The notes beneath the pieces were generated by a model. That model was given only the letters and a program-made list of their open reading frames with translations. It made no database searches and was not told the DNA's origin. Of a DNA stretch of 64,000 bases, positions 1,560 to 27,040 are shown piece after piece. Source of the stretch: Squalus acanthias (Eukaryota); contig CM059432.1 of NCBI GenBank assembly GCA_030390025.1, positions 9,486,001 to 9,550,000 of the forward strand, given 5' to 3'. Numbering within the stretch: the stretch's first letter is position 1; each line of letters opens with the position of its first letter. Made by a program: the position numbers and the translations under genes.

Positions 1560-2573
1560 ATTGCCAGAGATGAGGAGGAATTTCTTCGCTCAGAGGGTTG
1601 TGAATCTTTGGAATTCTCTACCACAAAGGGCTGTGGATGCTGAGTCGTTGAGTATATTCAAGGCTGAGATAGATAGATTCTTGGGGGGAAAAATTCAGCT
1701 GCTTGCGCCTCCCGTTAGCGCCTTAAGAGGGCGCTAATGGGGCGTAAAGCAGCTAACGCCCGGGCGCAGCGCCGCCCACGCCTCCCGAAAAATTCAGCGG
1801 GAGGTTAGCGGCGGCGCCAGCCGGTAGCGCCCTGTGGCGCTGCGCCGCCGGCGATGACGTCATCGCCGTGCGCAGCACCCCGCTCACGCTCCAGCCGCGA
1901 TCTTCAGTCGCGCCCCCTGATTTACCGCCAGACGCTATGTCCGACGGGTTCAGGGAGGCGTACGTGCGGCCGGGGCGGCGATATTTAAAGGGGAGGTGGC
2001 AGGCGGCCATTTTTGTTGCTGGCCGCCTGCCAGCACCTGCCCCCGGCCCCCGTGAAGCCCCCCCACCGTGAAGTGCCAGCTGCGCTCCAAGAGCCCGGCA
2101 CTTCTCTTGAGTGCCGGGCTCTTTTGCCGGCACTCCCGATCCCTGGGGGCCCAGCTGGGCCCCGGTTCGCGCTGCGCAGGGTCCCTCCCCTTTAAGAAGG
2201 GGAGGAAGGCCTGCAATACCGCGGCGCGACGTGCCGCAGCGCCACGCGCCAGGATATTCACTCGCAGCACCCCAAGAGGGATGCGGGGTGCTTCCAGTGG
2301 CGCCCCGCTTCCCTCTTGGGGCGCAACCACTGAAGTACCGGCGCGGGGCCGCTAATTTTTTCGGGGCGCTAAAAGTCGCGCCCCGGCGAGGTTAGCGCCC
2401 CAAATGGGGCGCGACTCAATTTTTACCCCTTGGACTCTAGGGGAATCAAGGGATATGGAGATCAGGCAGGAAAGTGGAGTTGAGGTCGAAGATCAGCCAT
2501 GATCTTATTGAATGGCGGAGCAGGCTCGAGGGGCCGTATGGCCGACTCCTGCTCCTAATTCGTATGTTCTTAT
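1560..2573 (+). mobile_element. CR1 LINE 3' end split by the MITE at 1684-2429
   Basis: GAGATGAGGAGGAATTTCTTC...GATAGATTCTTG|GACTCTAGGGGAATCAAGGGATATGG, then the 3' stem-loop and tail. Confidence 0.85.
1684..2429 (+). mobile_element. Non-autonomous Harbinger MITE (746 bp) related to the element at 22560-26671, in opposite orientation
   Basis: Ends GGGGGAAAAATT and AATTTTTACCCC; TSD TTG (1681-1683, 2430-2432). The first ~85 bp match the reverse complement of 26585-26671, and the other end matches 22560-22610. Interrupts a CR1 3' end. Confidence 0.92.
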
Positions 2574-2681
2574 GTAAAATGAGAGCCAACGGCCATTAAT
2601 GCGTTCGGCAGGCAGCCTGGCATGTTGTTGACCGTGCCATCAGTTGCACTCTGCTGAGTATACTGGCCGGTGAACACGCAC

Positions 2682-2935
2682 CTGACAGGATTGTTTGCTG
2701 TATCAGGGTCATGCGCGGAAACCGTGCCGATTGCCGTGCCCCCCTTCGCGTCCTCCGAGACGGACATCCTGTAACGGGGCGAGTTGAACTCGGGGGCCTC
2801 GTCCACATCTTCCACCACCAGCTTCACCGTCGCCATGTCGATGAAGGGTCCCAGGGCCTGGAATCGCGTGTCGATATTTTTATTGGTGACTTCAATCTTC
2901 AGGCTGTAGCTCGATCTTTTTTCGAAATCCAGTTC
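2682..2935 (-). CDS. cdh7: Cadherin-7-like coding exon (EC3 end to EC4 start), 254 bp
   Basis: cacag|GAA CTG GAT TTC GAA...CCT GTC AG|gtgcgt. Translates ELDFEKRSSYSLKIEVTNKNIDTRFQALGPFIDMATVKLVVEDVDEAPEFNSPRYRMSVSEDAKGGTAIGTVSAHDPDTANNPV(R), with LDFE, EDVDE and AxDxD calcium-binding motifs. Confidence 0.93.
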
Positions 2936-3238
2936 CTGTGAAACGATTAAAAAATAATTTGATATCTACTCCGCATAATATCAGTTCATTAAGAGCACGC
3001 AAAGCAAACTAGGGAACGAGACACATCCATCAGGTCCTGACATTTTAATACTGGATCACTTAATTAAATGGCAGAAGTATTTTCAGCTTGTTTGGTGCAC
3101 TGCCCTGGACATCTATCTTTGTTACTCTTGGTATTTACACCGAAGTGACAACTTACCAAGTAAATAAGGTTCCAAATGAATTATTTATTTACCGTTTCTC
3201 CAGAATCCCTTCTGTGATTTATTTATTTATTTATTCAG

Positions 3239-3690
3239 TGTCAGCTGTGGCTCAGTAGGTAGCCCCCTCGCCTCTGAGTCAGAAGGTTGTGGGTTCACAG
3301 TCCCACTCCAGGGACTTGAGCACATAAAGCTAGGCTGACACTCCAGTGCAGTGCTGAGGGAGCGCTGCACTGTCGGAGGTGCCGTCTTTTGGATGAGACG
3401 TTAAACTGAGGCCCCGTCTGCTCTCTCAGGTGGATATAGAAGAACCCATGGCGCTATTTCGAAGAAGAGCAGGGGAGTTATCACCGGTGTCCTGGGCCAA
3501 TATTTATCCCTCAATCAAGATAACATAATCAGATTATCTGGTCATTATCACATTGCTGTTTGTGGGAGCTTGCTGTGCGCAAATTGGCTGCCGCGTTTCC
3601 TACCTTACAACAGTGACTACACTTCAAAAGTACTTCACTGGCTGTAAGGCACTTCGGCACTTCCGGAGGTCGTGAAAGTCTTTCTTTTAT
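3239..3690 (+). mobile_element. tRNA-derived Deu-domain SINE (SacSINE1-like), near full length
   Basis: A-box TGGCTCAGTAGG, B-box-like GGTTCACAGTCC, core GAAGAGCAGGGGAGTT...CTGTGCGCAAATTGGCTGC. Multiple copies in the window. Family name is from recall. Confidence 0.8.
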
Positions 3691-4101
3691 TAATTTGCTC
3701 GGGTTTTTACCAGAACATGTTTCTCTACCTGTCCTCCCGGGTGATGAAAGTCACTGTCACCGTTCTGCCCCTTGTTCAGTAACAGTCCACGCCACCCCCG
3801 ATTTTTCGAGGTCCCCCCACTTGCCCGGTAACGGGGGCAGCAATGCCTGGAAAATCGTGACCAAACACTTGCCGTCACCCCCCCCACCACCCCCAATCCC
3901 GCTTCCCAATCTGCCCGCTGCCAATTTTGTCGGGGCCTTTGCACCACTGGCCCAGGCCTGCTCCACACAGGAGCCTGTTTGTAATGTGCTCATTGGGATG
4001 GCAATGCAATTTTGAGGTACAAATGGGCCGACTACACTCATCCTGAAGTCCACACAAACTGGCAATCAGTCCCATATCTCATTCAGAAAACAGTGGGAGA
4101 T

Positions 4102-4142
<41 letters not shown>

Positions 4143-4598
4143 GAGAGATAGATAGATAGATAGAGAGACAGAGAGATAGAGAGAGACGGAGAGACAGAGA
4201 GATAGAGAGAGACAGAGAGATAGAGAGAGACAGAGAGATAGATAGAGAGACAGAGAGACAGAGAGATAGAGACAGAGAGATAGATAACGAGATAGAGAGA
4301 TAGATAGAGACAGAGAGAGAGATAGAGAGACAGATAGATAGATAGATAGAGACAGAGATAGATAGAGAGATAGATAGAGAGATAGATAGAGAGGTAGAGA
4401 GATAGATAGAGAGATAGATAGAAAGATAGATAGAGAGAGAGAGGTAGATAGAGAGATAGGTAGAGAGATAGATAGAGAGAGACAGAGAGACAGAGAGACA
4501 GATAGATAGATAGAGACAGAGAGATAGATAAAGAGATAACAACAGAAAACGCTGGAAAAACTCAGCAGGCCAGGCAGCATCCGTGGAGAAAGAAAGAG

Positions 4599-4635
4599 AG
4601 TTAACGTTTCAGGTCGATGACCTTTCGTCAGAACT
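4599..4635 (-). ncRNA. Minimal type I hammerhead ribozyme motif (mirror copy)
   Basis: Exact reverse complement of 4792-4828; sense relative to the cadherin pre-mRNA. Confidence 0.65.
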
Positions 4636-4791
4636 GTGAAGAGCCGGAAATCAAATGGATTTAAGGCCAGAGTAAAGCTGGGAAAAGGGGGAGGGGATAA
4701 AAGAACAAAAGAACTCTCTTGTTCTTTTATCCCCTCCCCCTTTTCCCAGCTTTACTCTGGCCTTAAATCCATTTGATTTCCGGCTCTTCAC

Positions 4792-4828
4792 AGTTCTGAC
4801 GAAAGGTCATCGACCTGAAACGTTAACT
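4792..4828 (+). ncRNA. Minimal type I hammerhead ribozyme motif
   Basis: AGUU CUGACGA A AGGUC-AUC-GACCU GAAA CG UU AACU. Stem I is AGUU/AACU, stem II is 5 bp, with palindromic AACGUU. Confidence 0.65.
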
Positions 4829-5553
4829 CTCTTTCTTTCTCCACGGATGCTGCCTGGCCTGCTGAGTTTTTCCAGCGTTTTCTGTTGTTATTTCGGATTT
4901 CCAGCATCCGCAGTATTTTGCTATCGTAGATAAAGAGATAGATAGATAGATAGAGACAGAGAGATAGATAGAGACAAAGAGATAGAGAGATAGACAGAGA
5001 CAGAGATAGATAAAGAGATAGACAGAGAGATAGACAGAGAGATAGATAAAGAGATAGACAGAGAGATAGATAAAGAGATAGATAGATAGAGACAGAGAGA
5101 CAGAGAGAGAGATAGATAGAGACAGAGAGATAGATAAAGAGATGGATAGATAGAGAGAGATAGATAGAGAGAGAGATAGAGATAGAGAGAGAGATAGAGA
5201 GAGATAGATAGAGAGAAAGAGAGAGAGAGAGACAGAGACAGAGAGGTAGAGAGATAGATAAAGAGATAGATAGATAGAGACAAAGAGATAGATAAAGAGA
5301 TAGATAGATAGATAGATAGAGACAGAGAGATAGATAGAGACCGAGAGATAGATAGATAGAGAGATAGATAGAGACAGAGAGAGAGACAGAGAGACAGATA
5401 GAGAGATAAAGAGATAGACAGAGAGATAGATAAAGAGATAGAGAGATAGGTAGAGAGATAGATAAAGAGAGATAGATAGATAGAGAGAGAGAGACACCGA
5501 AACAGAGAGATAGATAGATAGATAGATAGATAGATACAGAGAGATAGATAAAG

Positions 5554-5584
<31 letters not shown>

Positions 5585-5629
5585 GACAGAGAGATAGATA
5601 GCTAGATAGATAGATAGATGAGATAGTTG

Positions 5630-5669
<40 letters not shown>

Positions 5670-5758
5670 TAGAGATATAGATAGAGAGACAGAGAGATAG
5701 ATAGAAAGATAGATAGAGGGAGATAGAGAGACAGCGAGATAGATAGACAGATAAAGAG

Positions 5759-5792
<34 letters not shown>

Positions 5793-6128
5793 ACAGAGAG
5801 ATAGATAGAGAGAGATAGATAGATAGTGAGAGAGAGATAGATAGAGGGAGACAGAGACACAGAGAGAGAGATAGATAGAGACAGATAGATAGATAAAGAG
5901 ATAGATAGATAGAGACAGAGAGATAGATAAAGAGATAGATAGATAGAGACAGAGAGAGATAGATAGAGAGAGAGATAGATAGAGAGAGAGATAGATAGAG
6001 ATAGAGAGAGAGAGAGAGATAGAAAGAGAGAGATACAGATAGAGATAGAGAGAGAGACAGAGATAGAGAGGTAGAGAGATAGATAGAGAGGTAGAGAGAT
6101 AGATAGAGAGGTAGAGAGATAGATAAAG

Positions 6129-6185
<57 letters not shown>

Positions 6186-6418
6186 CAGAGAGATAGATAG
6201 AGAGATAAAGAGATAGATAGATAGAGACAGAGAGACAGGGAGACAGAGAGACAGAGAGACAGAGAGACAGAGAATGATAAAGAGATAGATAGATAGAGAG
6301 ATATATAGAGAGGTAGAGAGAGAGATAGATAGAGAGGTAGAGAGATAGATAGAGAGGTAGAGAGATAGATAGAGAGATAGATAGAAAGATAGATAGAGAG
6401 AGATAGAGAGATATATAT

Positions 6419-6450
<32 letters not shown>

Positions 6451-7284
6451 GGAGAGACAGAGAGATATATAGATAGAGACAGAGAGACAGAGAGAGAGAT
6501 AGATAAAGAGATAGATAGATAGAGACAGAGAGATAGATAAAGAGGTAGATAGATAGAGACAGAGAGAGATAGATAGATATATAGATAGAGAGGTGGAGAG
6601 ATAGATAGAGAGATAGATAGAATGATAGATAGAGATAGAGAGAGAGGTAGAGAGAGAGAGAGAGGGGTAGAGAGAGAGAGAGAGATAGAGAGATAGAGAG
6701 ATAGATAGAGATAGAGAGATAGATAGAGATAGAGAGAGAGAGAGAGACAGAGAGATAGAGAGAGAGACAGAGAGATAGAAAGACACAGAGATAGAGGGAG
6801 AGATATATAGAGATAGAGAGACAGAGAGACAGAGAGATAGAGAGATAGATAGAGATAGAGAGATCGAGAGACAGAGATATAGAGAGACAGAGATAGATAG
6901 AGAGATAGAGAGATAGAGAGAGATATAGAGAGAGATAGATAGAGAGAGAGATAGAGAGAGAGATAGATAGAGAGATAGAGCTAGAGATAGAGAGATAGAT
7001 TGAGAGAGAGAGAGAGAGATAGATTGAGAGATAGATATATAGAGAGAGACAAATAGATAGAGAGAGAGAGATATATAGATAGATAGAGATAGAGAGAGAG
7101 ATAGATAGAGAGATAGAGAGTGAGATAGATAGATAGAGAGAGACATAGATAGATAGATGGAGAGATAGAGAGAGAGATAAATAGAGATGGAGAGACAGGG
7201 AGAGAGAGAGATAGAGAGATAGATAGATAGAGAGATAGATAGAGAGAGATAGATAGATAGAGATAGAGAGAGACAGTGAGATAG

Positions 7285-7329
<45 letters not shown>

Positions 7330-8386
7330 TAGATAGAGATAGATCGAGAGATAGATAGATAGAGAGAGATAGATAGAGAGACAGATATATAGATAGATAG
7401 AGATAGAGAGATAGATAGATAGAGAGATAGAGAGTGAGATAGAGAGATAGAGAGATAGATAGATAGAGAGATAGAGAGATAGATAGATAGATAGAGAAAT
7501 AGAGTGAGAGAGATAGAGAGATAGAGATAGAGAGAGGTAGAGCGATAGATAGAGAGCGAGATAGATAGAGAGAGATAGAGAGATAGATAGAGAGAGAGAT
7601 AGAGATAGAGAGATTGAGAGAGAGAGAGAGATAGATAGATAGATAGATAGATAGAGATAGAAATAGAGAGATAGAAAGATAGAGATAGATAGATTGATTG
7701 ATTGATTGAATGAATGAATGAATGAATGAATGAATGAGGCTGTGTGGCAATTGCACAATTCCCGACAAAAAAAGCTTCTTAATCTTTACTAGTCACGTGA
7801 TCATATAATCTTAAATTTGATGGGTTAGAGATATCTTTTCACTTGAATAAGAGAGACATTATTTTTAGATTTTTCTCAAAATGCTGCTTCTCTTCACAGC
7901 ACCTGGTAGGCATCAACTTCAACCATCACATAAAGATATCCCAGCGACAATGACCACTTGGCTTGTTGTCTGGTGCTGATTGTGTCTTCGAAATCTCTTG
8001 ATTGTGTCACATGTTTATACTGCAAGAATCTATCCTTCTTTACACACAGGCAAGATTGTCAATAAGTAAAATGACAGTGGAGAGAAAAACGCATTCAATC
8101 AAATATAAGAAAGACTTAGAAAAATACACTCACCCAGATTGAAGGAAGCTGTTCACTTTCCTTTGGGAAGATTATATTCTCTGTCAGTAAAGACTTGCTG
8201 AGGTTTTAGGTTTTTCCCCCGCAATAAGTCAGAGCTGGAGAGACTGACTACACCAGAGCAATGAGATAGAATTGAAGTATGTACCACTAGCAACTTATGG
8301 AAGGAGCCCTGATTGTGATCTTATTGTGTCAGCCGTGGCTCAGTGGGTAGCAGCCTTGCCTCTAAGTCATGAATGGTTGTGGGTTC

Positions 8387-9211
8387 ATAGAAACATAAAC
8401 ATAGAAACATAGAAGATAGGAGCAGGAGTAGGCCATTCGGCCCCTCGAGCCTGCTCCACCATTCAATGAGATCATGGCTGATCATCCAAACTCAGTACCC
8501 TGTACCTGCCTTCTCCCCATATCCCTTGATCCCTTTAGCCTTAAGAAATATATCTAACTCCTTCTTGAATATATTTACTGACTTGGCCTCAACTGCCTTC
8601 TGTGGTAGAGAATTCCATAGGTTCACCACTCTCTGGGTGAAGAAATTCCTCCTCATCTCTGTCCTAAATGGCTTACCCCTTATCTTTAGACTGTGACCTC
8701 TTGTTCTGGACTCACCCGCCATCGGGAACATCCTTCCTGCATCCAGTCTGTCTAGCCCTGTTAGAATTTTATAAGTTTCAATGTGATCTCCTCTCATTCT
8801 TCTAAACTCCAGCGAGTATAAGCCCAATCGACCCAATCTCTCCTCATACGTCATTCCTGCCATCCCAGGTATCAGTCTGGTGAATCTTCGCTGCACTCCC
8901 TCCATGGCAAGAACATCCTTCCTCAGATAAGGCGTCCAAAACTGCACACAATACTCAAGGCGTGGTCTCACCAAGGCCCTGTACAACTGCAGCAAGACAT
9001 CCTTGCTCCTGTACTCAAACCCTCTCGCTACAAAGGCCAACATACCATTTGCCTTCTTAACCGCCTGCTGCACCTGCATGCTTACCTTCAGCGACTGGTG
9101 CACAAAGACACCCAAGTCTCGTTGCACTTCCCCTTCTCCCAATCTATTGCCGTTCAGATAATAATCTGCCTTTCTTTTTTTGCCACCAAAGTGGATAACC
9201 TCGCATTTATC
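8387..9211 (-). mobile_element. 5'-truncated CR1 LINE inserted into a SINE
   Basis: ORF2 C-terminus (KCEVIHFG...LVRPRLEYCVQFW...FFTQRVVNLWNSLP) is open and followed by a (TTTCTATG)n tail. SINE halves lie at 8327-8386 and 9212-9283. Confidence 0.92.
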
Positions 9212-10854
9212 CAGTCCCACTCCAGAGACGCTCCAGAGACTTGAAGACAAAAAGCTAGGCTGACACTCCAGTGCAGTGCTGAGTGTCAGCCTAGCTTTTT
9301 GTCCTAGCTCCCCCGCCCCACAATCTCCCACCGTGACAATCCAGGCCCGTGGATCTCTGTTTAGTATAAATAGAGACGGAGAGTTCATTTACTGCGTGGG
9401 TGTTGCTTCAACCCCGTCTGAGAACCAGTGACGCCCTCCACGCGCCCGGATCAACTTTGTAGGCTGGGCGGTGGGAGCCTCCTTTCCTGAGATGGCAGCC
9501 GGAGAGATGAGTAGAGGGGGAATGGGGCATTTGGGGAGTAGGCGATGGGGGTGGTGGTGGTGGGGGTGGGGGAAGAGGTTTGACCGCAACTGGAGAGATC
9601 GGCCGCCGGTTGACGGCCGCGCGTTCTGGGAAAGGAGGCATCGGTTCCCCGCTTGCGCCCGCGGAACTCTAGGTGCCTCACCTGACCAGCCGCCTCAGCA
9701 CTGTGCGCTGGTCCAACCTTTGCGCCGAGCCAGCGACTCGAACGTGAGCCTCCTTTCGAGAGCAGCGCTCGCGCCTCAAATAGGGAGTGGGCATCCCGCT
9801 GGAAACCCAACCCCCTCCCCCCCCACCCCACCCCCGCCCCCGCCAACCAGTTTGAGGATGCCCGGCGCCAGCGCGACCGTTCGGACAGCCCGCCAATCGT
9901 ATTGAAATGGACCCCGGAGGTTAAAACCGGTCGGGGCCTCACACTGAGGACGTTGGGTGGGTGGGTTGCCCTCTCACCTCCCACCCGGGTGGGAGGGCCG
10001 CCCGTTTCACCCGCAGCTTACCCGAGAATCTGCTACCAGTTAAATTCCCCACCCCACCTCACCGCCCCCCACCCCCATCACATCACCCCGCTAAAATTTC
10101 ATATCTGTGTCTCTGGAAAGACATCTAATGCATCCATCGGTTTTTTTTTGGAGGTTTTTAAATAATCCTGCACAGTCTGACTGGCATTTAGCTCACTCTA
10201 AAACACCGTGCCAACGCACGCAGTCAGGACGTGTATCTGTCTTCAGCTGCCAGAGTTAATTGGTGCATGGAGTCAGTGCCTGCTGCCCACAGAGGTCAAG
10301 CATCATGTTGTCTGCCCATCTGGACCACATCTTCTACTGGTGAAGTTTCCATCTGCTTCCCAGAGATGTCTAATGACGCCGGATGATAAAAAGCCCAACT
10401 TCCTATCTCCCAGCAGTCTGAATGTAACGCAGCGCTGAGTGATTTTCAAGAACCTCGGAGGGCCAGCGGCCAGCGGCTCTCAAAGTCAAACTTCCACTTG
10501 AAACGTGCGACTATTACCACCGCGTCTTACCATGTAGCTGGCCCACCGACGTTCCCTGTGCCCACTCTCGGTCCCCCGCCCCCTCTCCTCGCCTGGAGTT
10601 GATGGTTCTGGCTGCGTTGTGTGTGCCGCAGGTAGTAAGAGCTCGCCACTACCTCACTAAATGACCAATCTTCATGGGTGAACCTTGACACTGAGGGTAT
10701 TTGACCAAAGGGGCAACGCAGCTGAGCCGGATCCTGTCCTCAGTTGATTTATGACAGACAGGAAAAGACCCTCTGGTCCATCCAGCCTGTCCCACACCAT
10801 TGTGATATCGTAGTTACCTTGTTTAATTTAAAACCCATCCAATTGTTACCTTCC

Positions 10855-11845: not shown

Positions 11846-12614
11846 GGCCCTGAATTTGTGGTCGGAGGCTTCCGGCGGGAGATGTCTCCGATCCGCAAAT
11901 AAAATACCCGCGTACCTGGGGGTCCGGGAGGTACGGAGACTCGCGGTCCTGGGCCTCTCCGGGTACGCGCGGGTAGAGGTCCGCAGATCTCAGGGTCGCA
12001 GGCGGTTCGCAAACGCCCCTGGGATCACATGGGCCGGCCCAACCAATAAAAGAAGAGAATCCCCATTCATACTTATGGGGATTCTGTACATACGGAATCC
12101 CCATAAGTATGAATGGGAATACCCTAAAAAATACACCTAGACATCAAATAAATAAAATAAAAATTACATATTTAAAATTAACTAAAATGGCATTTAGTTA
12201 AATATTTAAAACAAAAATTTAACTTTTTGAAAAATAAATTTACATGTTTTAACGGGGCCAAAAATAAACTTACCTTATTGCACAGGTTTTTTAATGTATA
12301 ACTGATTGATAACATTTTATTTTTATGTTTTTTTAAACTTTTACGCTGGTAAAAAGCAAGCTCTACCCCTGCTTTTACCGGGCGTAAGAATTTCACGGGC
12401 ATTCGCCGGGCAGAAGTTTGGCAAATATCGCAACTCTCAGCCCGCGGATGCCCTTGTCCCGGGGATGCGGAGGATTTGTCAAGAGGATTCTTGACAGATC
12501 GCAAGTTCCGGGTTTTCGTGCACACGCTTCGCATGCCTAAACCCGGAACTTGCGCGGCCCTTACGGGTGGGTGCGCACCTCGTACGCACCCGTAGGGGTC
12601 GCAAAATACGGCCC
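11846..12614. mobile_element. MITE with GGCC termini (Harbinger-like, third family)
   Basis: Similar along its length to the reverse complement of 52558-53304. GC-rich ends with an AT-rich core; flanks ATA/ATT. Confidence 0.75.
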
Positions 12615-12656
12615 ATTGTCGAGCAGCCACCCGATTCTGTGCTTTTGTCAACAACA

Positions 12657-13495: not shown

Positions 13496-14369
13496 AACAG
13501 TATTTCCTTGTAAACCCCTTTTAGTTAGAGTTTGATGGTGAGATCAGTCGCCTTGCAATACATGAAATACACTGCTCGAGTGCAGCAGATGATTTGAGAC
13601 TGAGTCATAGATTGAGTCACTCTCTGCAGTCATTCTGTACGGTTTCACTTTGAGTGAGAAGTCATCCTCTGCCAAGTCATCCTCTGCCCTGAGAAGCAAG
13701 CAATTTACAACCGAAGTCTCTCTTGCCAGAAGTTTTCATTCTGACTACATCTGCTTCTGAATGTGTTCATGTTTGGCCTGTTCTTAAATCAGAGCGGACG
13801 AAACATTTATCTTGGGTTCTGAAGGCCTTAACTAGCTGATATAGTGACTAACGGTGTCAGCGTTCCCGTTTTACTGCCCAACATGAACTGCATTTCAAAT
13901 CTGTCAAAATAAAAATCAATCAAGGGATCAGCCTCGATGGTTTTCCCATCGAGCTTGACGCAAATAATGTTTAATTTGAGTGATATGTCCTTGTAAAAAC
14001 CCTTTTACTTAGAGTTTATTTGCGAGAGCAATAGCCTTAAAGTGCATGTACTCACCCAACCTTCGCCCGCGCATTGCAACTCCACACAAATTCTGTTTGT
14101 GTGGCGGAGTTTATACTACAAATGAAATCTGATGCAGTAAAGCCTACTCCTGCTCCATATTGTTCAGCAGTGTGATTTCCATTTCAATGCGGGTCACATT
14201 CGGGCAAGGGCCTACAGTAAAAAGACTGTTGTCAAAGTCACCCGTGAGACTTGCCAATAATGAGTGTTGGAAACTAATAAAATTCCTCCTGATTGTAACA
14301 GCTATGGCCGGATATGTACTGTTCCCACATTGTAGCGCTGTAAATAAACTGATCACTTATAGAGTCAAA

Positions 14370-15244
14370 GGCCGGAATTTTGCCGGCGCTCAGGGGGCGG
14401 GTTTGGAGACGGGACCGCTGTCAAAATCGCAAATATTGACAGCGGGCGGGAAACCCGCTGTCAACCCGCCTCCAAGCAATCTTCCCGAGTGTTGGGTCCT
14501 CGATTTGCACGTGGACCCGACACCTAGCGGCGGGAAGAGGATTATAGCCACTTACCTGCCTGTTAACAGGTACTTGATACTTGTTAACAGGCTCTTTTTC
14601 AATTTTGCCGCTTCTGCCTCGGGTTCCCCGATGTCCGGACACCACGCCAGGTAAGTGTGGCGTGTTGTGAGTCTGCTGTAGTGTTTCTGCATTGATGACA
14701 GCTGCAGAAGTGGGGTGAAGGATCCAATGCTGCATTGGTGAGTTTCAGAGGTAACAAAATGTTGGGAAAATCATTTTTAATGCACTTACACTTTTCTGTA
14801 TGTAACAAGTTTTGAATTGGATGTCTAGTCCCACCTCATTGGGAGAACCTCTCTCACCAGCGACAGATTGCTTCTGTAACCTCCCCTGCAGCTGCCATCT
14901 GTTCTAGCCTAAGGAGGGAGTCACTGGAGAGCCTGGGTGCAAGAGCTCACCTTTGTACAGTGATTGTCAGTGTTTGCAGCACCTCAATGCTGTCAAACAA
15001 TGAGAAATGAGCTGTCAAACAAATTTGTGCGTGGTCCCTTTAAGAAAACCGGCAGATGATGCGTCGTTAAATGACGTCATCTGACCGGCTTCCTCTTAAT
15101 TGGCCGGCAAGCCTGCAGGGCGGGCTTAACAAGGTCAATCAGGGGAAAATGACATCCGTGAGCCGGATGTAGTTGGGGGCTGGACTGGAATCCAGAAACC
15201 AGCTGACCCGCTCCCAAGCCACACCCATTTACAAAATCGCGGCC
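14370..15244. mobile_element. Internally deleted Harbinger-type element (second family)
   Basis: Ends GGCCGGAATTTT and AAAATCGCGGCC; flanks AAA/ATA (imperfect TSD). Both ends and a Myb-gene remnant (about 14840-15000) are similar to the reverse complement of 42063-44662. Confidence 0.8.
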
Positions 15245-16020
15245 ATAGAGTCATAACGGCACAGAAGGAGGCCATTCGGCCCATCGAGTCTGTGCCGGCT
15301 CTGTGCAGAGCAATCCAGTCAGTCCCACTCACCCGCGCTATCCCCGTAGCCCTGCAAGTTTATTTCCCTCAAGTGCCTATCCAGTCTCCCCTTGAAAACA
15401 TTGAGTGTCTCCGCTTCCACCACTTTCGTCGGCAGCGAGTTCCAGGTCCTCACCACTCGCTGCGTAAAAAAGTTTTTCCTCACTTCCCCACTGTATCTCT
15501 TGCCCAAACCTTAAATCTGTGTCCCCCTAGTCCTTGTACCATCAACTAGTGGGAACAACCTTTCCCCCTCTAGCCAATCCAAACCCGTCATAATCTTGTA
15601 CACCTCTATCAAAATCACCCCTCAACCTCCTTTGCTCCAATGAAAACAAATCCAGCTTCTCCAACCTGTCCTTGTAGGTAAGATCCCCCATCCCCAGAAC
15701 CATTCTGGTAAATCTCCTCAGCACCCTCTCAAGGGCCTTCACATCCTTCCTAAAGTGTGGTGACCAGAACTGGAATCAATACTCCAGTTGTGGCCTAACC
15801 AGCGCTTTATAAAGGTTCAGCATAACTTCTCTACTTTTGTACTCAATACCTCTATTTATGAAGCCCAAGATCCCATATGCTTTGCTAACCACTCTCTCAA
15901 TATGTCCCGCCACCTTCAGGGACCTATGCACATCAACTCCCAGGTCCCTCTGTCCCTGCACACTCTTTAAAACTGTGCCATTAAGTGTATATTGCCTCTC
16001 CCTGTTCCTTCTGCCAAAAT
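15245..16020 (-). mobile_element. 5'-truncated, frameshifted CR1 LINE
   Basis: RDLGVDVH...LYKALVRPQLEY; FFTQRVVRTWNSLP. Confidence 0.9.
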
Positions 16021-18740: not shown

Positions 18741-19452
18741 AAGAACATAAGAAATAGGAGCAGGAGTAGGCCATTCGGCCCTTCGAGCCTGCTCCGCCAT
18801 TCAATGAGATCATGGCTGATCTTCTACCTCAACTCCATTCACCGGCCCTATCGCCATATCCCTTGATGCCCTTACTAGTCAGAAATCTATCGACTCCTGT
18901 TTTGAATATACCCAATGACTGAGCCTCCACAGCCCTCTGGGGTAGGGAATTCCAAAGATTCACCACCCTCTGTGTGAAGAAATTTCTTCTCATCTCAGTC
19001 CTGAATGGCCTACCCTTTATCCTGAGGCTGTGGCCCCTGGTTCTAGACTCCCCGAGCCAAGGGAAACATTCTCCCAGCATCCACCCTATCAAGTCCTGTA
19101 ATAATTTTGTATGCTTCAATGAGATCCCCTCTCATTCTTCTGAATTCAAGAGAATACAGGCCTAGTTTACTCAATCTCTTCTTATACGACAGTCCCGCCA
19201 TCCCAGGAATCAATCTGGTGAACCTTCGTTGCACTCCCTCTATGGCAAGTATATCCTTCCTTAGGTAAGGAGACCAAAATTGTACACAGTACTCCAGGTG
19301 TGATCTCACCAAGGCCCTATATAATTGGAGTAAGACTTCTTTACTCCTGTACTCAAATCCTCTTGTAATGAAGGCCAGTATACCATTTGCCTTCCTAATG
19401 GCTTGCTGCACCTGCACATTCACTTTCAGTGACTCATGTACAAGGACACCCT
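18741..19452 (-). mobile_element. 5'-truncated CR1 LINE, near-identical to 53902-54725
   Basis: ORF2 C-terminal translations and direct comparison of the two copies. Confidence 0.92.
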
Positions 19453-19554
19453 TTGAACACTTTCATTCATCAGTTACACTAATATTGGAGGTCGGGGCGG
19501 CAAAGCCTCGTTGACTGACAGTCAAAAATCCTCCAGTCGGGTAATGGTGAGTCT

Positions 19555-20015
19555 ACATAAGAACATAAGAAATAGGAGCAGGAATAGGCCACTTGGCTCC
19601 TTGAGCCAGCTCCGCCATTCAATAATATCATGGCTGATCTGATCTTGGGCTCAAAGCCACTTCCCTGCCCGCTCCCCATAACCCTTCACTCCCTTATCTT
19701 GCAAAAATCTGTCTATCTCCACCTTAAATGTATTTAATGACCCAGCCTCCACAGCTCTCTGGGGCAGAGAATTCCACAGATTTACGACCCTCTGAGAGAA
19801 GAAATTCCTCCTCACCTCAGTTCTAAAAGGGCGACCCTTTATTCTGAAACTGTGCCCCCGCGTTCTAGATTTCCCCACGAGGGGAAACATCCTCTCTGCA
19901 TCTACCTTGTCGAGCCCCCTCAGTATCATATATGTTTCAATAAGATCACCTCTCATTCTTCTAAATTCCAATGAGTATAGGCCCAGCCTGCTCAACCTTT
20001 CTTCATAAGTCAACC
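19555..20015 (-). mobile_element. 5'-truncated CR1 LINE
   Basis: YEERLSRLGLYSLEFRRMRGDLIE... Confidence 0.9.
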
Positions 20016-20514
20016 CCGTTGACTCTATTCGCTTTCCGATTGGTACGTGGGAATAATGGACGTGTTGGGCGACCAATGGCAGGAGGGCCATGTGATGATA
20101 CCTCCAGGAATATGCCCAACAGAGTTGGCAACCCGCTCAGGAATTCCATAACTTACAACACGCGCAGCCAACAGGTGAAGCTCCCCAGCAGGAAAGCAAA
20201 GTCGATAAATTGCCCCTTTCCAATTGAAACATGCACTGTGCGCAGGAGAAAGCATAGAATCACAGAACCATAAGCGAGTCATAAAACAGAAGCAAAATTG
20301 TGTTGTTTTTTTTTTTAGGAACAATACAAGGCCAACAGGCCCAAAAAATCTCATTCAATTTTGACAGTTCAATCCACTTATCTGACTTATCACCATATGT
20401 CTCGTACTCTTCATTCTCCAGAAACACATCTGATTGCTATCTTCAGCCAATTTCTACCACCTGCTTCAATAGCCTTCTTTGGTCGTTTATTTCATACAAT
20501 AGCTTTTGTATCAA

Positions 20515-20905
20515 CCACAACAACTTACATTTATATAGCGCCTTTAACATCGCAGGAGTGCACAATTTGACACCGAGTCACATAAGGAGATATTCGGACA
20601 GGTGACCAAAAGCTTGGTCAAAGAGGTAGGTTTTAAGGAGCATCTTAAAGGAGGAGAGGGACATAGAGAGGTGGAGAGGTTTAGGGAGGGAGTTCCTGAG
20701 CATAGGGCCTTGGCAGCTGAAGGCACGGCCGCCAATGGTGGAGCGATTAAAATCAGGGATGCTCAAGAGGCCAGCATTAGAGGAGCGCAGAGATCTCGAA
20801 GGGTTGTGGGGCTGGAGGGGTTACAGAGATAGGGAGGGGCGAGGCCATGGAGGGATTTGAACACAAAGTTGAGAATTTTAAAATAGAGCCACTGCAAGTC
20901 AGCGA
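20515..20905 (-). mobile_element. L2-clade LINE 3' fragment
   Basis: GGRAFSC..P.L.NSLP...FK.LLKTYLF; tail GGCGCTATATAAATGTAAG(TTG)n. Confidence 0.85.
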
Positions 20906-21221
20906 GCGTATCTAACCATTCTGCCTGACTTCCTATCTTGTTCCTAACTTCCTACTTTTTAAACTTGTGCCGGATGATATTTGAACTCTTCACCATACTG
21001 AACAATCTTCCTGAATTAATATTGTCAATTCCCTTCATAATCTTGAAAGCTTCCTCAACTATTTCTCATCCATTCCTGATGGCATGCAGAACTATCTTTA
21101 TTGCACGTTCCGAAGGGTAATAATATCTCTGTGATAAGCAGACTGGGAACATTTCTTTGGGGGGGGAGGGGGGTTAAAGTTGACATTCCTTGTCCTCATT
21201 TTCTGGCTGCCACCAGCCTTT

Positions 21222-21770
21222 TTTTTAATTTGTTCCTGGGATGTGGGCGTCACTGGCAAGGCCAGTATTTATTGCCCATCCCTAGTTGCCCTCTTGAACC
21301 GCTGCAGTCTGTGTGGTGAAGGTACTCCCACAGTGCTGTTAGGTAGGGAGTTCCAGGATTTTGACCCAGCGACGATGAAGGATCGGTGATATACTTCTAA
21401 GTCAGGATGGTGTGTGACTTGGAGGGAAACTTGGAGGTGGTGGTGTTCCCCATGCGCCTGCTGCCCTTCTCCTTCGAGGTGGAAGAGCTCGTGGGTTTGT
21501 GAGGTGCTGCCGAAGAAGCCTTGGCGAGTTGCTGCAGTGCACCTTGTAGATGGTACACACTGCAGCCACGGTACGCCGGTGGTGGAGGGAGTGCATGTTT
21601 AAGGTGGTGGATGGGGTGCCAATCAAGCGGGCTGCTTTGTCCTGGATGGTGTCGAGCTTCTTGAGTGTTGATGGAGCTGCACTCATCCAGGCAAGTGGAG
21701 AGTATTCCATCACACTCCTTACTTGTGCCTTGTAGATGGTGGAAAGGCTTTGGGGAGTCAGGAGGTGACT
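21222..21770 (-). mobile_element. 3' fragment of a distinct CR1/L2-group LINE
   Basis: MEYSPLAWMSAA...LDTIQDKAARLIG...SLHHRR; same family as 60262-61225. Confidence 0.8.
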
Positions 21771-22198
21771 TTAAGGGACTTTGGATTTAATGGTGAAGAT
21801 TTAAAGCTATAATTGAAAGATTTGATACAGGGGGTAGACTAACTCTGATGTGGGATTATTGCAGAGAAAACAGGGTCAGATAGCTAACAGCAAGAAAGGT
21901 TATAAATAGTTTTAGAAGCACTGGAAGTCAGCCAAAGTGCGGTGTTGTAACTGAGAAACCAGTAGGCGACAAGAGAGACAGTAACCACAAGTGACAACGT
22001 TGAAAATTAATGTATAATCTATCATTTCAAAACCTGTATGTACTGCCCCTCTACAGTGAGAGTGATATTGTGCTCTGGTTTGTGCTGTGATTAAATTCCC
22101 TTCAGTTCAGTTCCGCAAAGGCTAGCAGAATTCAATTTAGTCAACAAAACCTTCATTCTCACACCTCAGCAGAAGATTTTCCATTTGCCCGGTCTTAC

Positions 22199-22386
22199 CT
22201 TCTGAAGAGCGATGATCCCCTCCTGCGTCTCCTTGTCAGTCGAAATTTTGAGAACGGCAAGGCCATCTCCATCAACGATCCTGTATTCCATTTCAGCGTT
22301 TGGACCAATGTCGGCATCGAGAGCTTTTATCTTAGCAATGGTTGAAGCCACAGGCAAAGATTCAGGCACGTTGTACTGATAAAACC
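22199..22386 (-). CDS. cdh7: Cadherin-7-like coding exon (EC3, N-terminal part), 188 bp
   Basis: ctcgcag|GG TTT TAT CAG...CAG AAG|gtaaga. Translates (R)FYQYNVPESLPVASTIAKIKALDADIGPNAEMEYRIVDGDGLAVLKISTDKETQEGIIALQK. Phase 1/0, joining in frame with both neighbouring exons. The YQYNVPESLPVAS motif is CDH7-like. Confidence 0.93.
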
Positions 22387-22908
22387 CTGCGAGAAAGAAA
22401 GTTAAAAAACGTCATCCACCGAAAATCCACTGCACTCATTTCTTGCGCTGATGAGCGCTCAGGAAGGATGTAGAAATAATCTCGATTTTAACCCCAACAC
22501 GCCCAGCAGTTGCGGGGTGAGCGACGGAAACGAAGAAGGAACAAGACTTAAGAGTCATAGGGGGAAAAATTAGGTCGCGCCCCGTTTGGGGCGCAAATAT
22601 CGTCTGGACGCAAAAATTAGCGCCTGGTGCTAATTATCGCCACTGACTGGAAACTTCACTTTTACCGCCCCGGGAGGTGAGTGGAGCGCTAAATCAGGCG
22701 CTGCACACCTGTCTTAAGGCGCAAAGGCCGAGCAGTGAGGCGCTAACTCAGCGCGCGAGCGCAGCGCAGGTGCTGCCAGTTAGCGAGGGAACACAGACAC
22801 ACTGGTGCCGGCCAGTTCTTAAAGCGGGGGGGCCAACTTGCTCCCCAGCCACACCCTGCTCATTGCAGCCTTGAATCTCGGCCTGGAGAGACCTGTGAAT
22901 CCATTTTG

Positions 22909-24683
22909 ATGCCAAGGATGGAGAGGGTGAGAGAACGAGCTCAGCACTTCACCGAGCGGGCCTTGGATGCTCTGGTTGGCGCGGTGGAGTGCAGAAGATC
23001 TATACTCTTCCCTGAGAGTGGCAGGAGGCCTTTGCCACGCGAGTACAGAAGAGTGTGGAGGGAGGTGGCTCAGAGCGTCTCCTCCAGGAGCATGGTGCCC
23101 AGGACCCATGTTTAATGCCGCAAAAAGTTCAACGACCTCACTCGGGTCGTCAGGGTGAGTGGCTTTTTCTCAATACCTCTCCATCCCTCCATCTCAACCT
23201 CACTCTATGGCCAGAGGGTCTTAAAACCCCAATGCACAACACTCATCCAACACCTATGGCCCTTTCATGAAACACACACACACATTCCACACTTTGCATA
23301 CAGTAAGGGCTATTCACCTATGGGAGGCACATCAGGCAAGACCATGGCTGTATATTTACTCAGATGCTGTCCTTTTTCTTGCAGGCCAAGCTGGCGCATA
23401 ATAGGAGACAGCAGCAATGGACAGGTGGAGGGCGGCCTCAGCTGCAACCCCTCAGCGATCTTGAGGAGCGCGTCCACAGGATTGTGGCAAGCCGGGTGAT
23501 CGGTCCCGTCGCCACTGGAGACGCCGACCCCGTTCTGGACAGCAATGGTAAGGTCATCACCTTTTTGTCCTCTGTCCTTCCACTTGTCCCTCACAACACC
23601 AGCCTTTGACACTTTCAATCCAACTTGCTAACTCGCTGCACTTATTCCTCCCTTACTGCCACCCTGTCCTCACGCTAAAGCCACTCTTGTACCTCCCTGC
23701 TTTCAGATGGTGATTCACCAGCTGAGGAGACAGGCCCTGAAGCTGCCAGTGGGAGTGAAGCTGCAGCCGAGGAGGAAGAGGAAGCCGGAGCATCAGTGCC
23801 ACCCTCTCCCGAGGAAGCCCATGCCCACACTGGGAACACGCCTTCCCTGGAGGGGAGCAGGGGGGAAGGGTCTGATGAGGGTGAAGCTCCAGGACCCAGC
23901 GGGCTGCAGCAACGCCATGGGGGTAGGGAAGAACGGGAGCCTTCTCCCCAGAGGGAGAGTATGCCAGCGACTCCTACTGCAATGGACGCAGAGGAGGAGC
24001 GGCTGATCGCAGAAATGAACACCCAGGCGGTGGGCATGCACACTGAGCTCATGGGTGCAGTGGGAAGGGTGCCCGAATGCATTGAGTCACTGGCAAGGAG
24101 TGTGGAGCACTTCGCTGTAGCACAGGCGGATGCCACACTAATGCTTAGTGCTGCAATTCAGTCACTGACTGCCGTGATCCCATCTCTGACTGCTCTCATG
24201 CAGACTCAGATTGAGGCCACGCGAGCACTGACTGCTGCCAACCTCGATGGTTCGTTCACATGTCCCCGGGGCTCTCACCGCGCCGCAGCAGGCCAGCAAT
24301 CTGTGCTCCAGCAGATTGCTCCGGATGCTGAAGTGCTGCCCCGTGGGAGTGCCAGTGTGTCGGTCGAGCAGGGAGTTGCTGTCCTCTCTCACGATGACAG
24401 CATTCCTGCTGCCAACACTGTCACTTCTCCACTGCACTTGCCACCGCCTGTAGGACAGACTGCTGCCGCCCATGCAGAGTTGGTGCAGTCTGCAGCCGGG
24501 CCCTCCAGGCCCAGAACTGGTCGAGGCCGTCCTTCAGGGGCATCTGCAGTGTCAGGGTCTGACGAGCAGCAGCCTTCCACCAGCCTTGCTGCAGCCACTG
24601 AGGTCCCATTACGGAGGAGCAGTAGGGTTAGAAGGGGGGAAGTGCGCAAGGGAAGGAGATCACCCTCGAAGGGCAAAAAGTAG
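22909..24683 (+). pseudogene. Harbinger Myb/SANT-like DNA-binding protein gene; exons 22909-23154, 23385-23547, 23707-24683; in-frame TAA at 23113-23115
   Basis: Exon 1 gives RAQHFTERALDALV...W.EVA..V...RTHV*CRKKFNDL (trihelix/Myb_DNA-bind_5 pattern). GT-AG introns have compatible phases 0 and 1. Exon 2 has the TGGG motif. Exon 3 has acidic and helical regions and a basic C-terminus. The spliced frame is 461 codons with one stop. Confidence 0.85.
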
Positions 24684-24995
24684 GAGGTGTGACAAAATGC
24701 TGGTCAGTTTTTTATTAAAGGCCGAGGTTCGTGGTCCAACTTTTGTCTAGTGTTTTGGACATTATCTCCAGGTTGTGAGAACCAGTTATGTTAATGACTG
24801 TTTTTTTGTGTTTATTTCTATGAGTTTGTCATGAGGAAATGACACACACAGAGTTTGTAAAATAAATAAGTTTTTGTATTCAAAATATACATGTTTGGTG
24901 TTTGGAATCATTGGTGCCTTGGCTGGCTTAGGGGTTGCGTGCTGGGTTCATTGATGTTGTTAGCAATGGCAGAAGCCATTTCCACAGCAGGGGCC

Positions 24996-26156
24996 CTAGA
25001 AGCGGCTTGCTATCAGCCGTTGACGGACGGCTCTTGCAGTTTCACCATTGTGGGCCGCCCTCCCGCCTTGGTGCTGCTGATGATCATCCTCCTCGTCCTC
25101 TTCCTCCTCTTCCTCCTCCTCCTCTGGTGGTGCTCCAAGGCCTGGTGGCATTGGCTGGGTCCTGACGATTGCCATGTTATGCAACATGCAGCACATAACT
25201 ACGAAGTTGGATACTCGCTCAGGCGAGTACTGCAGGGCTCCTCCAGAATGGTCGAGACAGCGGAACCGTTGCTTCAGCACGCTGATTGTGCGCTCAATGA
25301 TGTTCCTGGTAGCTTGATGGCTCTCGTTGTACCGCAGCTCAGCAGGGGTGTTGGGCGTACGGAGCGGTGTCATCAGCCAGGTGCTCAATGGATACCCCTT
25401 GTCCCCGAGAAGCCAACCAACTGGCTGATGCGGTGCCTCGAAAAGTTCTGCCACAGTAGTCTGGCGCAGGATGAAAGCAGCGTGGCAGCTGCCAGGATAG
25501 TGGGCATTGACAGCGAGTATCAGCTGTCTGTGGTCACAGACCAACTGAACATTCAAGGAATGGAACCCCTTTCTGTTCCGGAATTCCTCGGCATTCTCAT
25601 GTGGAGCACGCAAAGCCACATGCGTGCAGTCAATGGTGCCCTGCACCATGGGGAAGCCCGCTATCCTCGCAAAGCCCAGAGCGCGGTCACGCTGCTTGTC
25701 TAGGGTCATGGGGAAAGAGATGAACTCTCGTCTCCTTTTAAAGAGGGCATTTGTGACCTGCCGGATGCAGCAATGCACCGCGAACTGGGAGATATTGGCG
25801 AGGTCCCCAGCAGCAGCTTGAAATGAGCCAGTAGCATAGAAGTTGAGAGCCACTGTGACCTTCACTGCCACCGACAGAGACGTCCTGGACCTCAGTTGAG
25901 GCTGCAGATCTGGCTGCAGCAGGTGGCAGAGCTCAGTGACCACCTCCTTGCTGAATCGCAGACTTCGCAAACACAGCTCCTCAGACATATGAATGTAGGA
26001 GAGCTGTTCACGATATACCCTGGGAGGGTAAGCTCTCCTGTACATACGCCTATTGGCCCTCCTCCGTCTGGCCATCATTGCCACTCTCTCTCTGCATCTC
26101 TGTGTCCTCCGATTCAGCTGGAGCAGGACGACGCCCCCATTCAGTGCAGCCCCCAT
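24996..26156 (-). CDS. Harbinger DDE transposase (HARBI1-like), 386 aa from ATG at 26156, intronless, uninterrupted
   Basis: N-terminal HTH-type region (LRFSKE...ALNFYATGSFQ...ISQ), FPMVQGTIDCTHV (D), NRKGFHSLNVQLVCD, YPGSCH, LLGDKGYP (D), YNESHQATRNIIERTISVLKQRF (E), CCMLHN, then an acidic tail. Confidence 0.93.
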   Translation of the reverse strand: MGAALNGGVVLLQLNRRTQRCRERVAMMARRRRANRRMYRRAYPPRVYREQLSYIHMSEELCLRSLRFSKEVVTELCHLLQPDLQPQLRSRTSLSVAVKVTVALNFYATGSFQAAAGDLANISQFAVHCCIRQVTNALFKRRREFISFPMTLDKQRDRALGFARIAGFPMVQGTIDCTHVALRAPHENAEEFRNRKGFHSLNVQLVCDHRQLILAVNAHYPGSCHAAFILRQTTVAELFEAPHQPVGWLLGDKGYPLSTWLMTPLRTPNTPAELRYNESHQATRNIIERTISVLKQRFRCLDHSGGALQYSPERVSNFVVMCCMLHNMAIVRTQPMPPGLGAPPEEEEEEEEEDEEDDHQQHQGGRAAHNGETARAVRQRLIASRF

Positions 26157-26671
26157 AGTCTCTTTGCAAGCAAAGTTATGAAGGACAGCAACCAAAGTAC
26201 CAGCGAAGTTAGGATCAGTAGGCAAAACTACCTCACAAAGCGTTGACTCAATGCAGAAGTCTCTCTTTCTCTCTCTCTCCGAATCTCTCTCTCTCTCTCA
26301 GAACGAGTGGTGCAAAAATGTCAACCACAGAAAAAGACAGGAAGAGGCCCCCTTTAAATAGCGCCCCCCCCCCAGCCCCACAGCGATTGATAGCGTTCCA
26401 GTCTTCCGGTCGTTGGATGCGCCAGGCGGTAAGGCAGGGGGCGCCACTCAATTTCCGCTCCGGGGCGCCACAAGGGCGTTGCACCATGGAATGACGTCAC
26501 AATCTGCGCGCGCAGGTGGTCGCGGCGGTAAAGTTTAGCGCCGCCGCACAATGTCTAGTTAAGTTCCCGAGCGGCGCAAACATCGCTGCGCCCGGGCGCT
26601 AGCGGCTTTGCGCCCCATTAGCGCCCTCTTAAGGCGCTAACGGGAGGCGCAACCAACTGAATTTTTCCCCC

Positions 26672-27040
26672 ATAGAGTTATACAGCACAGAAAGAGGCCC
26701 TTCGGCCCATCAGGTCCACGCCGGCCATCAAGCCCTGTCTATTCTAATCCCATTTTCCAGCACTTGGTCCGTAGCCTTGTATGCTATGGCATTTCAGGTG
26801 CTCATCTAAATGCTTCTTGAATGTTGTGAGGGTTCCTGCCTCTACCACCCTTTCAGGCAGTGAGTTCCAGATTCCAACCACCCTCTGGCTGAAAAAGTTT
26901 TTCCTCAAATCCCCTCTAAACCTCCTGCCCCTTACCTTGAAACTAGGCCTCCTGGTGATTGACCCCTCTACTAAGGTGAAAAGTTCCTTTCTATCTACTC
27001 TATCTATGCCTCTCATAATTTTGTACACCTCAATCAGGTC
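26672..27040 (-). mobile_element. CR1 LINE 3' end whose tail is the Harbinger target
   Basis: DLIEVYKIMRG...WNSLPERVVEA. The tail continues at 22551-22559 on the far side of the transposon. Confidence 0.88.

What the first reader, a model, noticed from the sequence alone, without database searches (positions are those of the whole stretch)
1674..26681. Three Harbinger insertions share a palindromic target that lies in CR1 LINE 3' ends
Reconstructed empty sites: TAGATTC-TTG-GACTCTA (1684 MITE), TAGAGTC-AAA/ATA-GAGTCAT (14370 element) and AAGAGTC-ATA-GAGTTAT (22560 element). All approximate TAGAGTC-NNN-GACTCTA with a variable 3-bp TSD. All three lie in CR1 3' sequence, two of them in the (CATAGAGT)n tail. 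The 39590 MITE matches the right half-site (GACTCAA). Zebrafish Harbinger3_DR is known to be target-selective. Inference: these families use abundant LINE tails as recurrent landing pads. This rests on only three sites; the 11846, 42063 and 52558 elements do not fit.
Basis: partly seen in the sequence, partly recalled or inferred. Interest (0 to 1): 0.7.

Follow-up and report, generated by a model that had tools for sequence, protein, structure and literature searches.

The report
Harbinger target motif inside CR1 tails
Cut-and-paste jumping genes in this shark-like genome prefer a short symmetrical landing sequence already known from a zebrafish element, and one variant of a very common retrotransposon's tail happens to spell it, which makes that tail a repeat landing spot rather than a dedicated target.

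Summary
The three insertions are real. Each is a TIR element with a 3-bp TSD that interrupts a CR1-type LINE 3' end, and two families hit the same base of a (CATAGAGT)n tail. Contigs from two runs of the organism label that matches best gave four flank consensuses (72, 116, 133 and 162 contigs), all reading NNN-GTCTTT. That is the right half-site of the zebrafish Harbinger3_DR target. All seven Harbinger insertions in the window, including the three said not to fit, match this half-site (43 of 84 letters; 0 of 200,000 simulations). Three of seven in CR1 is no enrichment (CR1 is 23% of the DNA, p=0.20). Both GAGT tails are occupied, against 0 of 17 other tails. A motif model trained without these sites picks the exact register used. 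Best reading: an ordinary degenerate 15-bp Harbinger preference, for which the GAGT tail is an abundant good match and so a hot spot. Dedicated LINE homing is unlikely but not excluded, because no genome was held and contigs collapse junctions inside repeats.

The parts
1684..2429 (.). Element A: 746-bp non-autonomous Harbinger (MITE), family 1; TSD TTG at 1681-1683 and 2430-2432
   Evidence: TIRs and TSD; left end 94% identical over 87 bp to the right end of C, right end 78% over 65 bp to the left end of C
1565..2580 (+). Host CR1-type 3' fragment (end of ORF2, 3' UTR, CATAAGAA-type tail) split by A
   Evidence: BLAST coverage 1565-1683 and 2429-2580; gap-free alignment of the empty site to two paralogues
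14370..15244 (.). Element B: 875-bp non-autonomous Harbinger, family 2; imperfect TSD AAA/ATA
   Evidence: 80-82% similarity to the ends of F and 74-79% to D
14359..16020 (-). Host CR1-type 3' end; its (CATAGAGT)n tail is split by B
22560..26671 (.). Element C: 4.1-kb autonomous-type Harbinger, family 1; 12-bp perfect TIR; TSD ATA/ATA
24996..26156 (-). Transposase ORF of C, open, with D-D-E residues at the expected places
   Evidence: DDE_Tnp_4 E=6.8e-38; top hits are shark and ray 'putative nuclease HARBI1' proteins, best 66% identity; alignment
22909..23154 (+). First exon of the Myb/SANT-like gene of C, with an in-frame stop at codon 69
   Evidence: Translation; Myb_DNA-bind_5 E=3e-5, above the curated cut-off
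23679..24683 (+). Open frame, probably the last exon of the Myb-like gene (inferred)
   Evidence: ORF; no Pfam hit
22550..27041 (-). Host CR1-type 3' end; its (CATAGAGT)n tail is split by C
39590..40433 (.). Element D, family 2 MITE, TSD GAG/GAG, not in CR1
42063..44662 (.). Element F, family 2, TSD GAT/GAC, not in CR1; right flank matches GTCTTT at 5 of 6; carries a nested CR1 at 42180-42980
11846..12614 (.). Element E, family 3 MITE, TSD ATA/ATT, not in CR1
52558..53304 (.). Element G, family 3 MITE, TSD AAT/AAT, not in CR1
37863..37865 (+). Unoccupied paralogue of site A in another CR1 copy (one letter different in the 17-bp site)

Best explanation
These are PIF/Harbinger cut-and-paste transposons (three TIR families in the window). 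Their transposase-Myb complex prefers a degenerate, symmetrical site of about 15 bp: a 3-bp centre with A/T in the middle, duplicated on insertion, and an outward half-site R-W-S-T-Y-T on each side whose commonest form is GTCTTT, as for zebrafish Harbinger3_DR. The CR1 tail variant (CATAGAGT)n offers GACTCT on one side and GAGT(C/T)A on the other at the right spacing, once per 8-bp unit. One spot near the end of ORF2 offers a similar match. Because these LINE ends are abundant, they act as recurrent hot spots at a fixed base. Shown: the elements, TSDs, order of insertion, modal half-site of family 1, and the fit of all seven sites. Inferred: that the preference alone explains the tail hits, that the left half-site mirrors the right (one element end was laid), and the protein mechanism (from Harbinger3_DR and mPing).
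For:: loose ends at the TIR edge give TAT-GTCTTTA in X1 (72 contigs) and X2 (116). A sister subfamily clipped at 26652 gives ATA-GTCTTTT (X1, 133 contigs) and CTA-GTCTTTT (X2, 162). Agreement over 30 letters in the first two is only 0.41 and 0.40, and the rest is featureless A/T, as expected of many unrelated flanks. Harbinger3_DR target AAACACCWGGTCTTT (PMC3016246, passage); across 14 half-sites, position 1 is a purine in 13, position 2 A/T in 14, position 4 T in 10, position 5 a pyrimidine in 13; 43 of 84 letters match GTCTTT (0 of 200,000 draws); D-G alone 146 of 200,000; a PWM from D-G only puts held-out A, B and C in the top 1.2%, 0.65% and 0.47% of 39,126 positions; such a PWM picks the exact register used in both tails, ranks those tails 2nd and 3rd of 19 (1st and 3rd with GTCTTT added), and scores CATAGAGT best of 5 pure tail types; no CR1 enrichment overall (p=0.20); extended target preference is described as a superfamily trait, 15 bp in vertebrates (PMC2836001, passages).
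Against: The small held-out PWMs give each occupied tail only 0.06-0.17% of expected insertions. Two hits among seven are therefore far more than these models predict; the true matrix must be sharper, or something else adds. Against plain GTCTTT, sites A-C match only 6-7 of 12 letters. The TSD modes in three of the four consensuses (TAT, TAT, ATA) are those a tail insertion gives in either orientation, which hints at a sizeable tail minority. De Bruijn contigs collapse copies that share a repeat flank, tail junctions in the window's own orientation align through and never appear as loose ends, and 344 loose-end rows were hidden. Contig data cover family 1 only. One unoccupied tail (37483) scores as high as the occupied ones.
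Confidence: 0.72

Rival explanations
1. Dedicated LINE homing: these families, or sublineages, have shifted their target towards the GACTC form, or are tethered to CR1 chromatin or proteins, so that CR1 3' ends serve as a selected safe harbour, in the way Dada elements use small-RNA genes.
For: Two different families at the same tail base; 2 of 2 GAGT tails against 0 of 17 others; both family-1 copies in the window are in CR1; the small PWMs under-predict the double hit. In run X10 the equal depth (67.6) of the 26667 variant and of the flank bins suggests one contig that joins an element end to a CR1 tail (my reading).
Against: The modal family-1 flank is GTCTTT, not tail. Tail insertions in the reverse orientation would show as TAT-GACTCT among the 72 and 116 contigs and do not set the consensus. 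Four of seven insertions are outside CR1. The window's CR1 hits are at two unrelated positions that share only the motif.
Confidence: 0.12
2. Chance plus over-fitting: a weak general preference and a post-hoc consensus from three sites in a window that is 23% CR1.
For: 3 of 7 in CR1 is not significant. The consensus and the GAGT category were chosen after seeing the data.
Against: The same base of the same tail type is hit by two families, and a held-out PWM predicts that register.
Confidence: 0.09
3. Reverse order or co-mobilisation: the CR1s inserted beside existing Harbinger ends through tail microhomology, or one composite unit was copied.
For: Only about one tail unit lies outside B and C; B's TSD is imperfect (AAA/ATA); both left flanks begin with ACTTA.
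Against: A splits CR1 ORF2 with a perfect TSD and gap-free continuity; C has a perfect TSD; B and C belong to different families with different TIRs and hosts.
Confidence: 0.04
4. Survival bias: insertions inside old repeats are tolerated and others are purged.
For: General expectation for gene-containing regions; a cadherin exon lies at about 2684-2935.
Against: It cannot give base-level register or a motif, and there is no CR1 enrichment to explain.
Confidence: 0.03

Closest known systems
Harbinger3_DR / Harbinger3N_DR of zebrafish (Sinzelle et al. 2008; primary paper not held, seen only as cited in passages of PMC3016246 and PMC2836001)
   Same: Transposase plus Myb-like ORF, 3-bp TSD with central W, about 15-bp near-palindromic target; the modal half-site found here equals its right half-site GTCTTT.
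   Different: The TSD is not CWG here (0 of 7 in the window; modes TAT, ATA, CTA). The half-site appears more degenerate (A or T at position 2, C or T at 5). No LINE-tail hot spot appears in the passages read. Transposase relatedness to Harbinger3_DR itself was not tested.
Plant PIF / mPing (PMC2836001, passages)
   Same: Two-ORF system, 3-bp TSD, preference that extends beyond the TSD.
   Different: 9-bp preference with TTA-type TSD; here at least 15 bp.
NuwaI and NuwaII groups of the PHIS superfamily (PMC4482050, abstract and passages)
   Same: Two ORFs (DDE plus Myb/SANT); the NuwaII target C|TNA|G resembles the Y|NWN|R context here (C before the TSD in 3 of 7, G after it in 6 of 7).
   Different: NuwaI needs CWG TSDs (not met). 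TSDs here are not TNA in 7 of 7.
Dada DNA transposons and Pokey (PMC3706591, abstract and passages)
   Same: Repeated insertion at a fixed base of a multicopy sequence.
   Different: Dada is strictly target-specific, has 6-7-bp TSDs and another transposase. Here most sampled flanks are not the repeat. Pokey (prefers 28S rDNA but also inserts elsewhere) is the closer behavioural analogue.

Membership tests
PIF/Harbinger (PHIS) superfamily | DDE transposase of the DDE_Tnp_4 / HARBI1 type | tested here: met
   (element C)
PIF/Harbinger (PHIS) superfamily | Second ORF with a Myb/SANT-like domain | tested here: met
   Myb_DNA-bind_5 E=3e-5; in-frame stop in this copy
PIF/Harbinger (PHIS) superfamily | TIRs and 3-bp TSD | tested here: met
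   TSD perfect in 4 of 7, one mismatch in 3 of 7; paralogous empty site for A
PIF/Harbinger (PHIS) superfamily | Target preference extending beyond the TSD | tested here: met
PIF/Harbinger group in the narrow sense (PMC4482050) | TWA TSD | tested here: not met
   0 of 7 TWA; TSDs are NWN
NuwaI / Harbinger3_DR-type | CWG TSD | tested here: not met
   0 of 7; modes are not CWG
NuwaI / Harbinger3_DR-type | Half-site GTCTTT | tested here: met
   Four consensuses against the passage; one element end only
NuwaI / Harbinger3_DR-type | Transposase groups with Harbinger3_DR in a tree | not tested
   No named Harbinger3_DR sequence was fetched; no tree was built
Strictly target-specific DNA transposons (Dada-like) | Nearly all copies at one site of a multicopy target | tested here: not met
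   4 of 7 outside CR1; modal family-1 flank is not CR1
CR1 LINE (hosts) | 8-bp 3' microsatellite like ATTCTRTG | tested here: met
   Tails listed include the exact octamer (38721, 63624) and one-letter variants; motif from PMC8665684 passage
CR1 LINE (hosts) | RT domain groups with the CR1 clade | not tested
   Only ORF2 C-terminal fragments examined, no Pfam hit; their assignment to CR1 rests on the tail and on recall
   No genome held; flank depth is mixed with contigs of CR1 alone

The most novel reading that the evidence does not exclude
Several elasmobranch Harbinger families have tuned the old GTCTTT-type target towards the form spelled by one CR1 tail variant, so that a large, selected share of new copies lands harmlessly in LINE tails: a DNA transposon exploiting a retrotransposon's self-renewing tail as safe harbour, with tail variant and target specificity co-evolving.
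Probability: 0.12. Interest if true: 0.65.

Novelty: new member of a known kind. Interest (0 to 1): 0.33.

Why it matters
It indicates that the Harbinger3_DR half-site is shared between a teleost element and an abundant elasmobranch family, although the TSD differs. PMC9179366 (passages) reports Harbingers absent from the elephant shark and asks for other cartilaginous fish to be checked. It also shows how a degenerate 15-bp preference turns an abundant repeat into a base-exact hot spot that looks like homing. With thousands of copies (rough inference from depth), the family could give a precise target matrix and a clean test of motif-only versus selected targeting. It is not a new principle unless that test fails.

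Tried and rejected
Whole-genome flank logo: not possible, no genome held. Exact TIR patterns found 0 matches in viral, metagenome and prokaryote genome contigs. The transposase scan of metagenomes gave 4 loci at 34-39% identity among 69 candidate stretches; not followed, too distant. Using depth to measure the share of TIR-to-tail junctions was rejected: contigs of CR1 alone also lie on the 30-bp flank (X17 depth about 3,700 there against 90-580 inside the element). One search used a wrong right end for A (2427); it was redone and only one search is used. A PWM from all seven sites ranks A-C at the very top and predicts 40% of insertions in CR1, but it is circular and not counted. A general TIR-pair scan found no convincing eighth element; extra pairs were CR1 internal matches or crossed ends of E and B. 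A TIR-like word at 28181 has no partner and was dropped. Two of 21 CR1 hallmark hits (14156, 51530; no octamer tail) were left out of the tail count of 19. Pfam gave no family for the CR1 ORF2 fragments. The primary Harbinger3_DR paper is not held, so its position matrix could not be used. Six paper searches listed no title or abstract start on a Harbinger hot spot in CR1 tails; Repbase reports and subscription journals are not covered.
Full report
Setting. No whole genome is held for this window. The DNA is from a cartilaginous fish by its relatives: the best matches to the transposase of the 22560 element are shark and ray proteins named 'putative nuclease HARBI1', up to 66% identical (213 hits among 8,000 candidates, 120 listed). 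The window holds seven TIR elements with 3-bp duplications. Family 1 is A (1684-2429) and C (22560-26671); their ends are 94% and 78% alike. Family 2 is B, D and F, and family 3 is E and G. C has an open DDE_Tnp_4 transposase and a Myb/SANT exon with a stop. This is the two-gene anatomy of PIF/Harbinger (PMC9179366 and PMC2836001, passages).

The observation. With A and one TTG removed, the host aligns without gaps to two uninterrupted CR1 copies, so the Harbinger went into the LINE. B and C, from different families, sit at the same base of a (CATAGAGT)n tail. That octamer differs by one letter from the CR1 microsatellite ATTCTRTG (PMC8665684, passage), and the exact octamer occurs in other tails of the window.

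The family's real target. Twenty of 23 listed runs hold the C region, under 12 organism labels plus two rows without a label. I laid the right end of C with 30 bp of flank on contigs of four runs (about 55% of X1 and 97% of X2 read). Contigs that leave the reference at the TIR edge give the consensus TAT-GTCTTTA in X1 (72 contigs) and X2 (116), median loose length 255, with featureless A/T beyond. A sister subfamily clipped at 26652 gives ATA-GTCTTTT (X1, 133 contigs) and CTA-GTCTTTT (X2, 162); there fewer than half the contigs reach the flank (median loose length 17 and 19). So the modal outward half-site is GTCTTT, the right half of the Harbinger3_DR consensus AAACACCWGGTCTTT (PMC3016246, passage), and not GACTCT.

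All seven sites fit. Read outward from the TSD, the 14 half-sites have a purine at position 1 in 13, A/T at position 2 in 14, T at position 4 in 10 and a pyrimidine at position 5 in 13. The middle base of the TSD is A/T in 7 of 7 (chance about 0.013). Against GTCTTT, which comes from other data, they match at 43 of 84 letters; 0 of 200,000 random draws from 38,964 window positions reach this. D-G alone give 146 of 200,000 and E-G alone 844 of 200,000. GACTCT and GTCTTT are two forms of one degenerate half-site, G-W-C-T-Y-T. The elements that 'did not fit' fit this wider motif.

Is CR1 targeted? CR1-type sequence is 23.1% of the pre-insertion, non-simple DNA (9,019 of 39,126 positions), and 3 of 7 is not above that (p=0.20). 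The tail type matters: of 19 tails, both GAGT tails are occupied and none of 17 others (Fisher p=0.006, post hoc). A PWM trained on D-G only ranks the held-out sites A, B and C in the top 1.2%, 0.65% and 0.47%. It picks the exact register used in both tails, ranks them 2nd and 3rd of 19, and prefers CATAGAGT among five pure tail types. The motif therefore accounts for where in the tail, and largely for which tail. It does not yet account for how often: these weak PWMs give each tail site only 0.06-0.17% of insertions, so the double hit is under-predicted. Eight half-sites make a blunt matrix, so I take this as a limit of the model, but it is the open point. A near-identical copy of site A at 37863 is empty.

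How large can the tail share be? This is inference. Tail insertions in the reverse orientation run out into unique DNA, are not collapsed, and would read TAT-GACTCT among the 72 and 116 contigs. T still wins at positions 2 and 5. If orientation is random and about 30% of other flanks are lost because they start with A, this caps the tail share of family 1 at under about 60%. If non-tail sites already carry A at position 2 about a third of the time, as in D-G, the cap is about 20%. The TAT and ATA modes of the TSD hint that the share is not negligible. Depth could not settle it, because contigs of CR1 alone lie on the flank too, and 344 loose-end rows were not shown.

Mechanism. By analogy with Harbinger3_DR and mPing, the Myb protein binds the TIRs and the transposase cuts and joins; which protein reads the target is left open in the passage read. 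A symmetric complex reading two half-sites around a 3-bp centre explains the palindrome. An 8-bp tandem tail presents a good left half-site and a fair right half-site once per unit, and the LINE renews such sites each time it inserts. No CR1-specific factor is needed.

Comparison and novelty. It works like Harbinger3_DR but fails the CWG test of NuwaI and the TWA test of narrow PIF/Harbinger (PMC4482050, abstract and passages), so I file it only at superfamily level. It is not Dada-like strict targeting (PMC3706591, passages). Six paper searches listed nothing on this hot spot; Repbase and subscription papers were not searchable and no supplements were opened. Earlier AI notes on this genome report a shared palindromic motif, a CR1-tail hot spot 144 kb further on, and hot spots in satellites and a Penelope-type repeat. 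They are unchecked leads that agree with this reading and are not counted as support. Verdict: a real local pattern, an over-fitted consensus, and a known kind of mechanism.

Noticed in passing
window 22300-27000: Twenty runs under 12 organism labels and 14 studies hold 47-84% of the sampled 31-mers. In X10 and X17 the element is at very low depth, yet each has a 134-bp contig at the same coordinates (26501-26634) with 7 differences. Possible horizontal spread, slow evolution or carry-over of DNA; unresolved.
   Followed up: partly
run X17, loose end before 26667: One contig ends in a tail-like word just before the last five bases of the TIR and then continues into the CR1 flank. It may be an imprecise excision or deletion remnant in a GAGT tail of another organism; single contig.
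   Followed up: no
run X17, loose end behind 26671: A family-1 end flanked by TTG-GACTATA and sequence that is not CR1 tail; it resembles a Penelope-type repeat (recalled, and in line with note e1-7805368; not tested).
   Followed up: no
window 42180-42980: A CR1 3' fragment nested inside Harbinger F: nesting also runs the other way.
   Followed up: partly
window 2684-2935 (-): Cadherin-domain exon (PF00028, E=5e-7); the insertions probably lie in introns of a cadherin gene.
   Followed up: partly
window 14355-14359 and 22546-22550: Both occupied tails are preceded by ACTTA; may reflect a TT-rich CR1 insertion preference or a longer Harbinger preference.
   Followed up: no
window 28900-37000: About 8 kb GC-rich minisatellite of short units with open repetitive frames on both strands.
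   Followed up: no
window 4533-4894 and 1202-1366: Near-perfect fold-back palindromes: 180-bp arms at 99% with a 2-nt gap, and 79-bp arms at 96% with a 7-nt gap.
   Followed up: no
window 27040-27180: The CR1 hosting C is cut off or interrupted by a different GC-richer stretch about 370 bp into the element.
   Followed up: no
window 24996-26156 (-): The transposase keeps the D-D-E residues, while the Myb gene of this copy has a stop: this copy is probably not self-mobile.
   Followed up: partly
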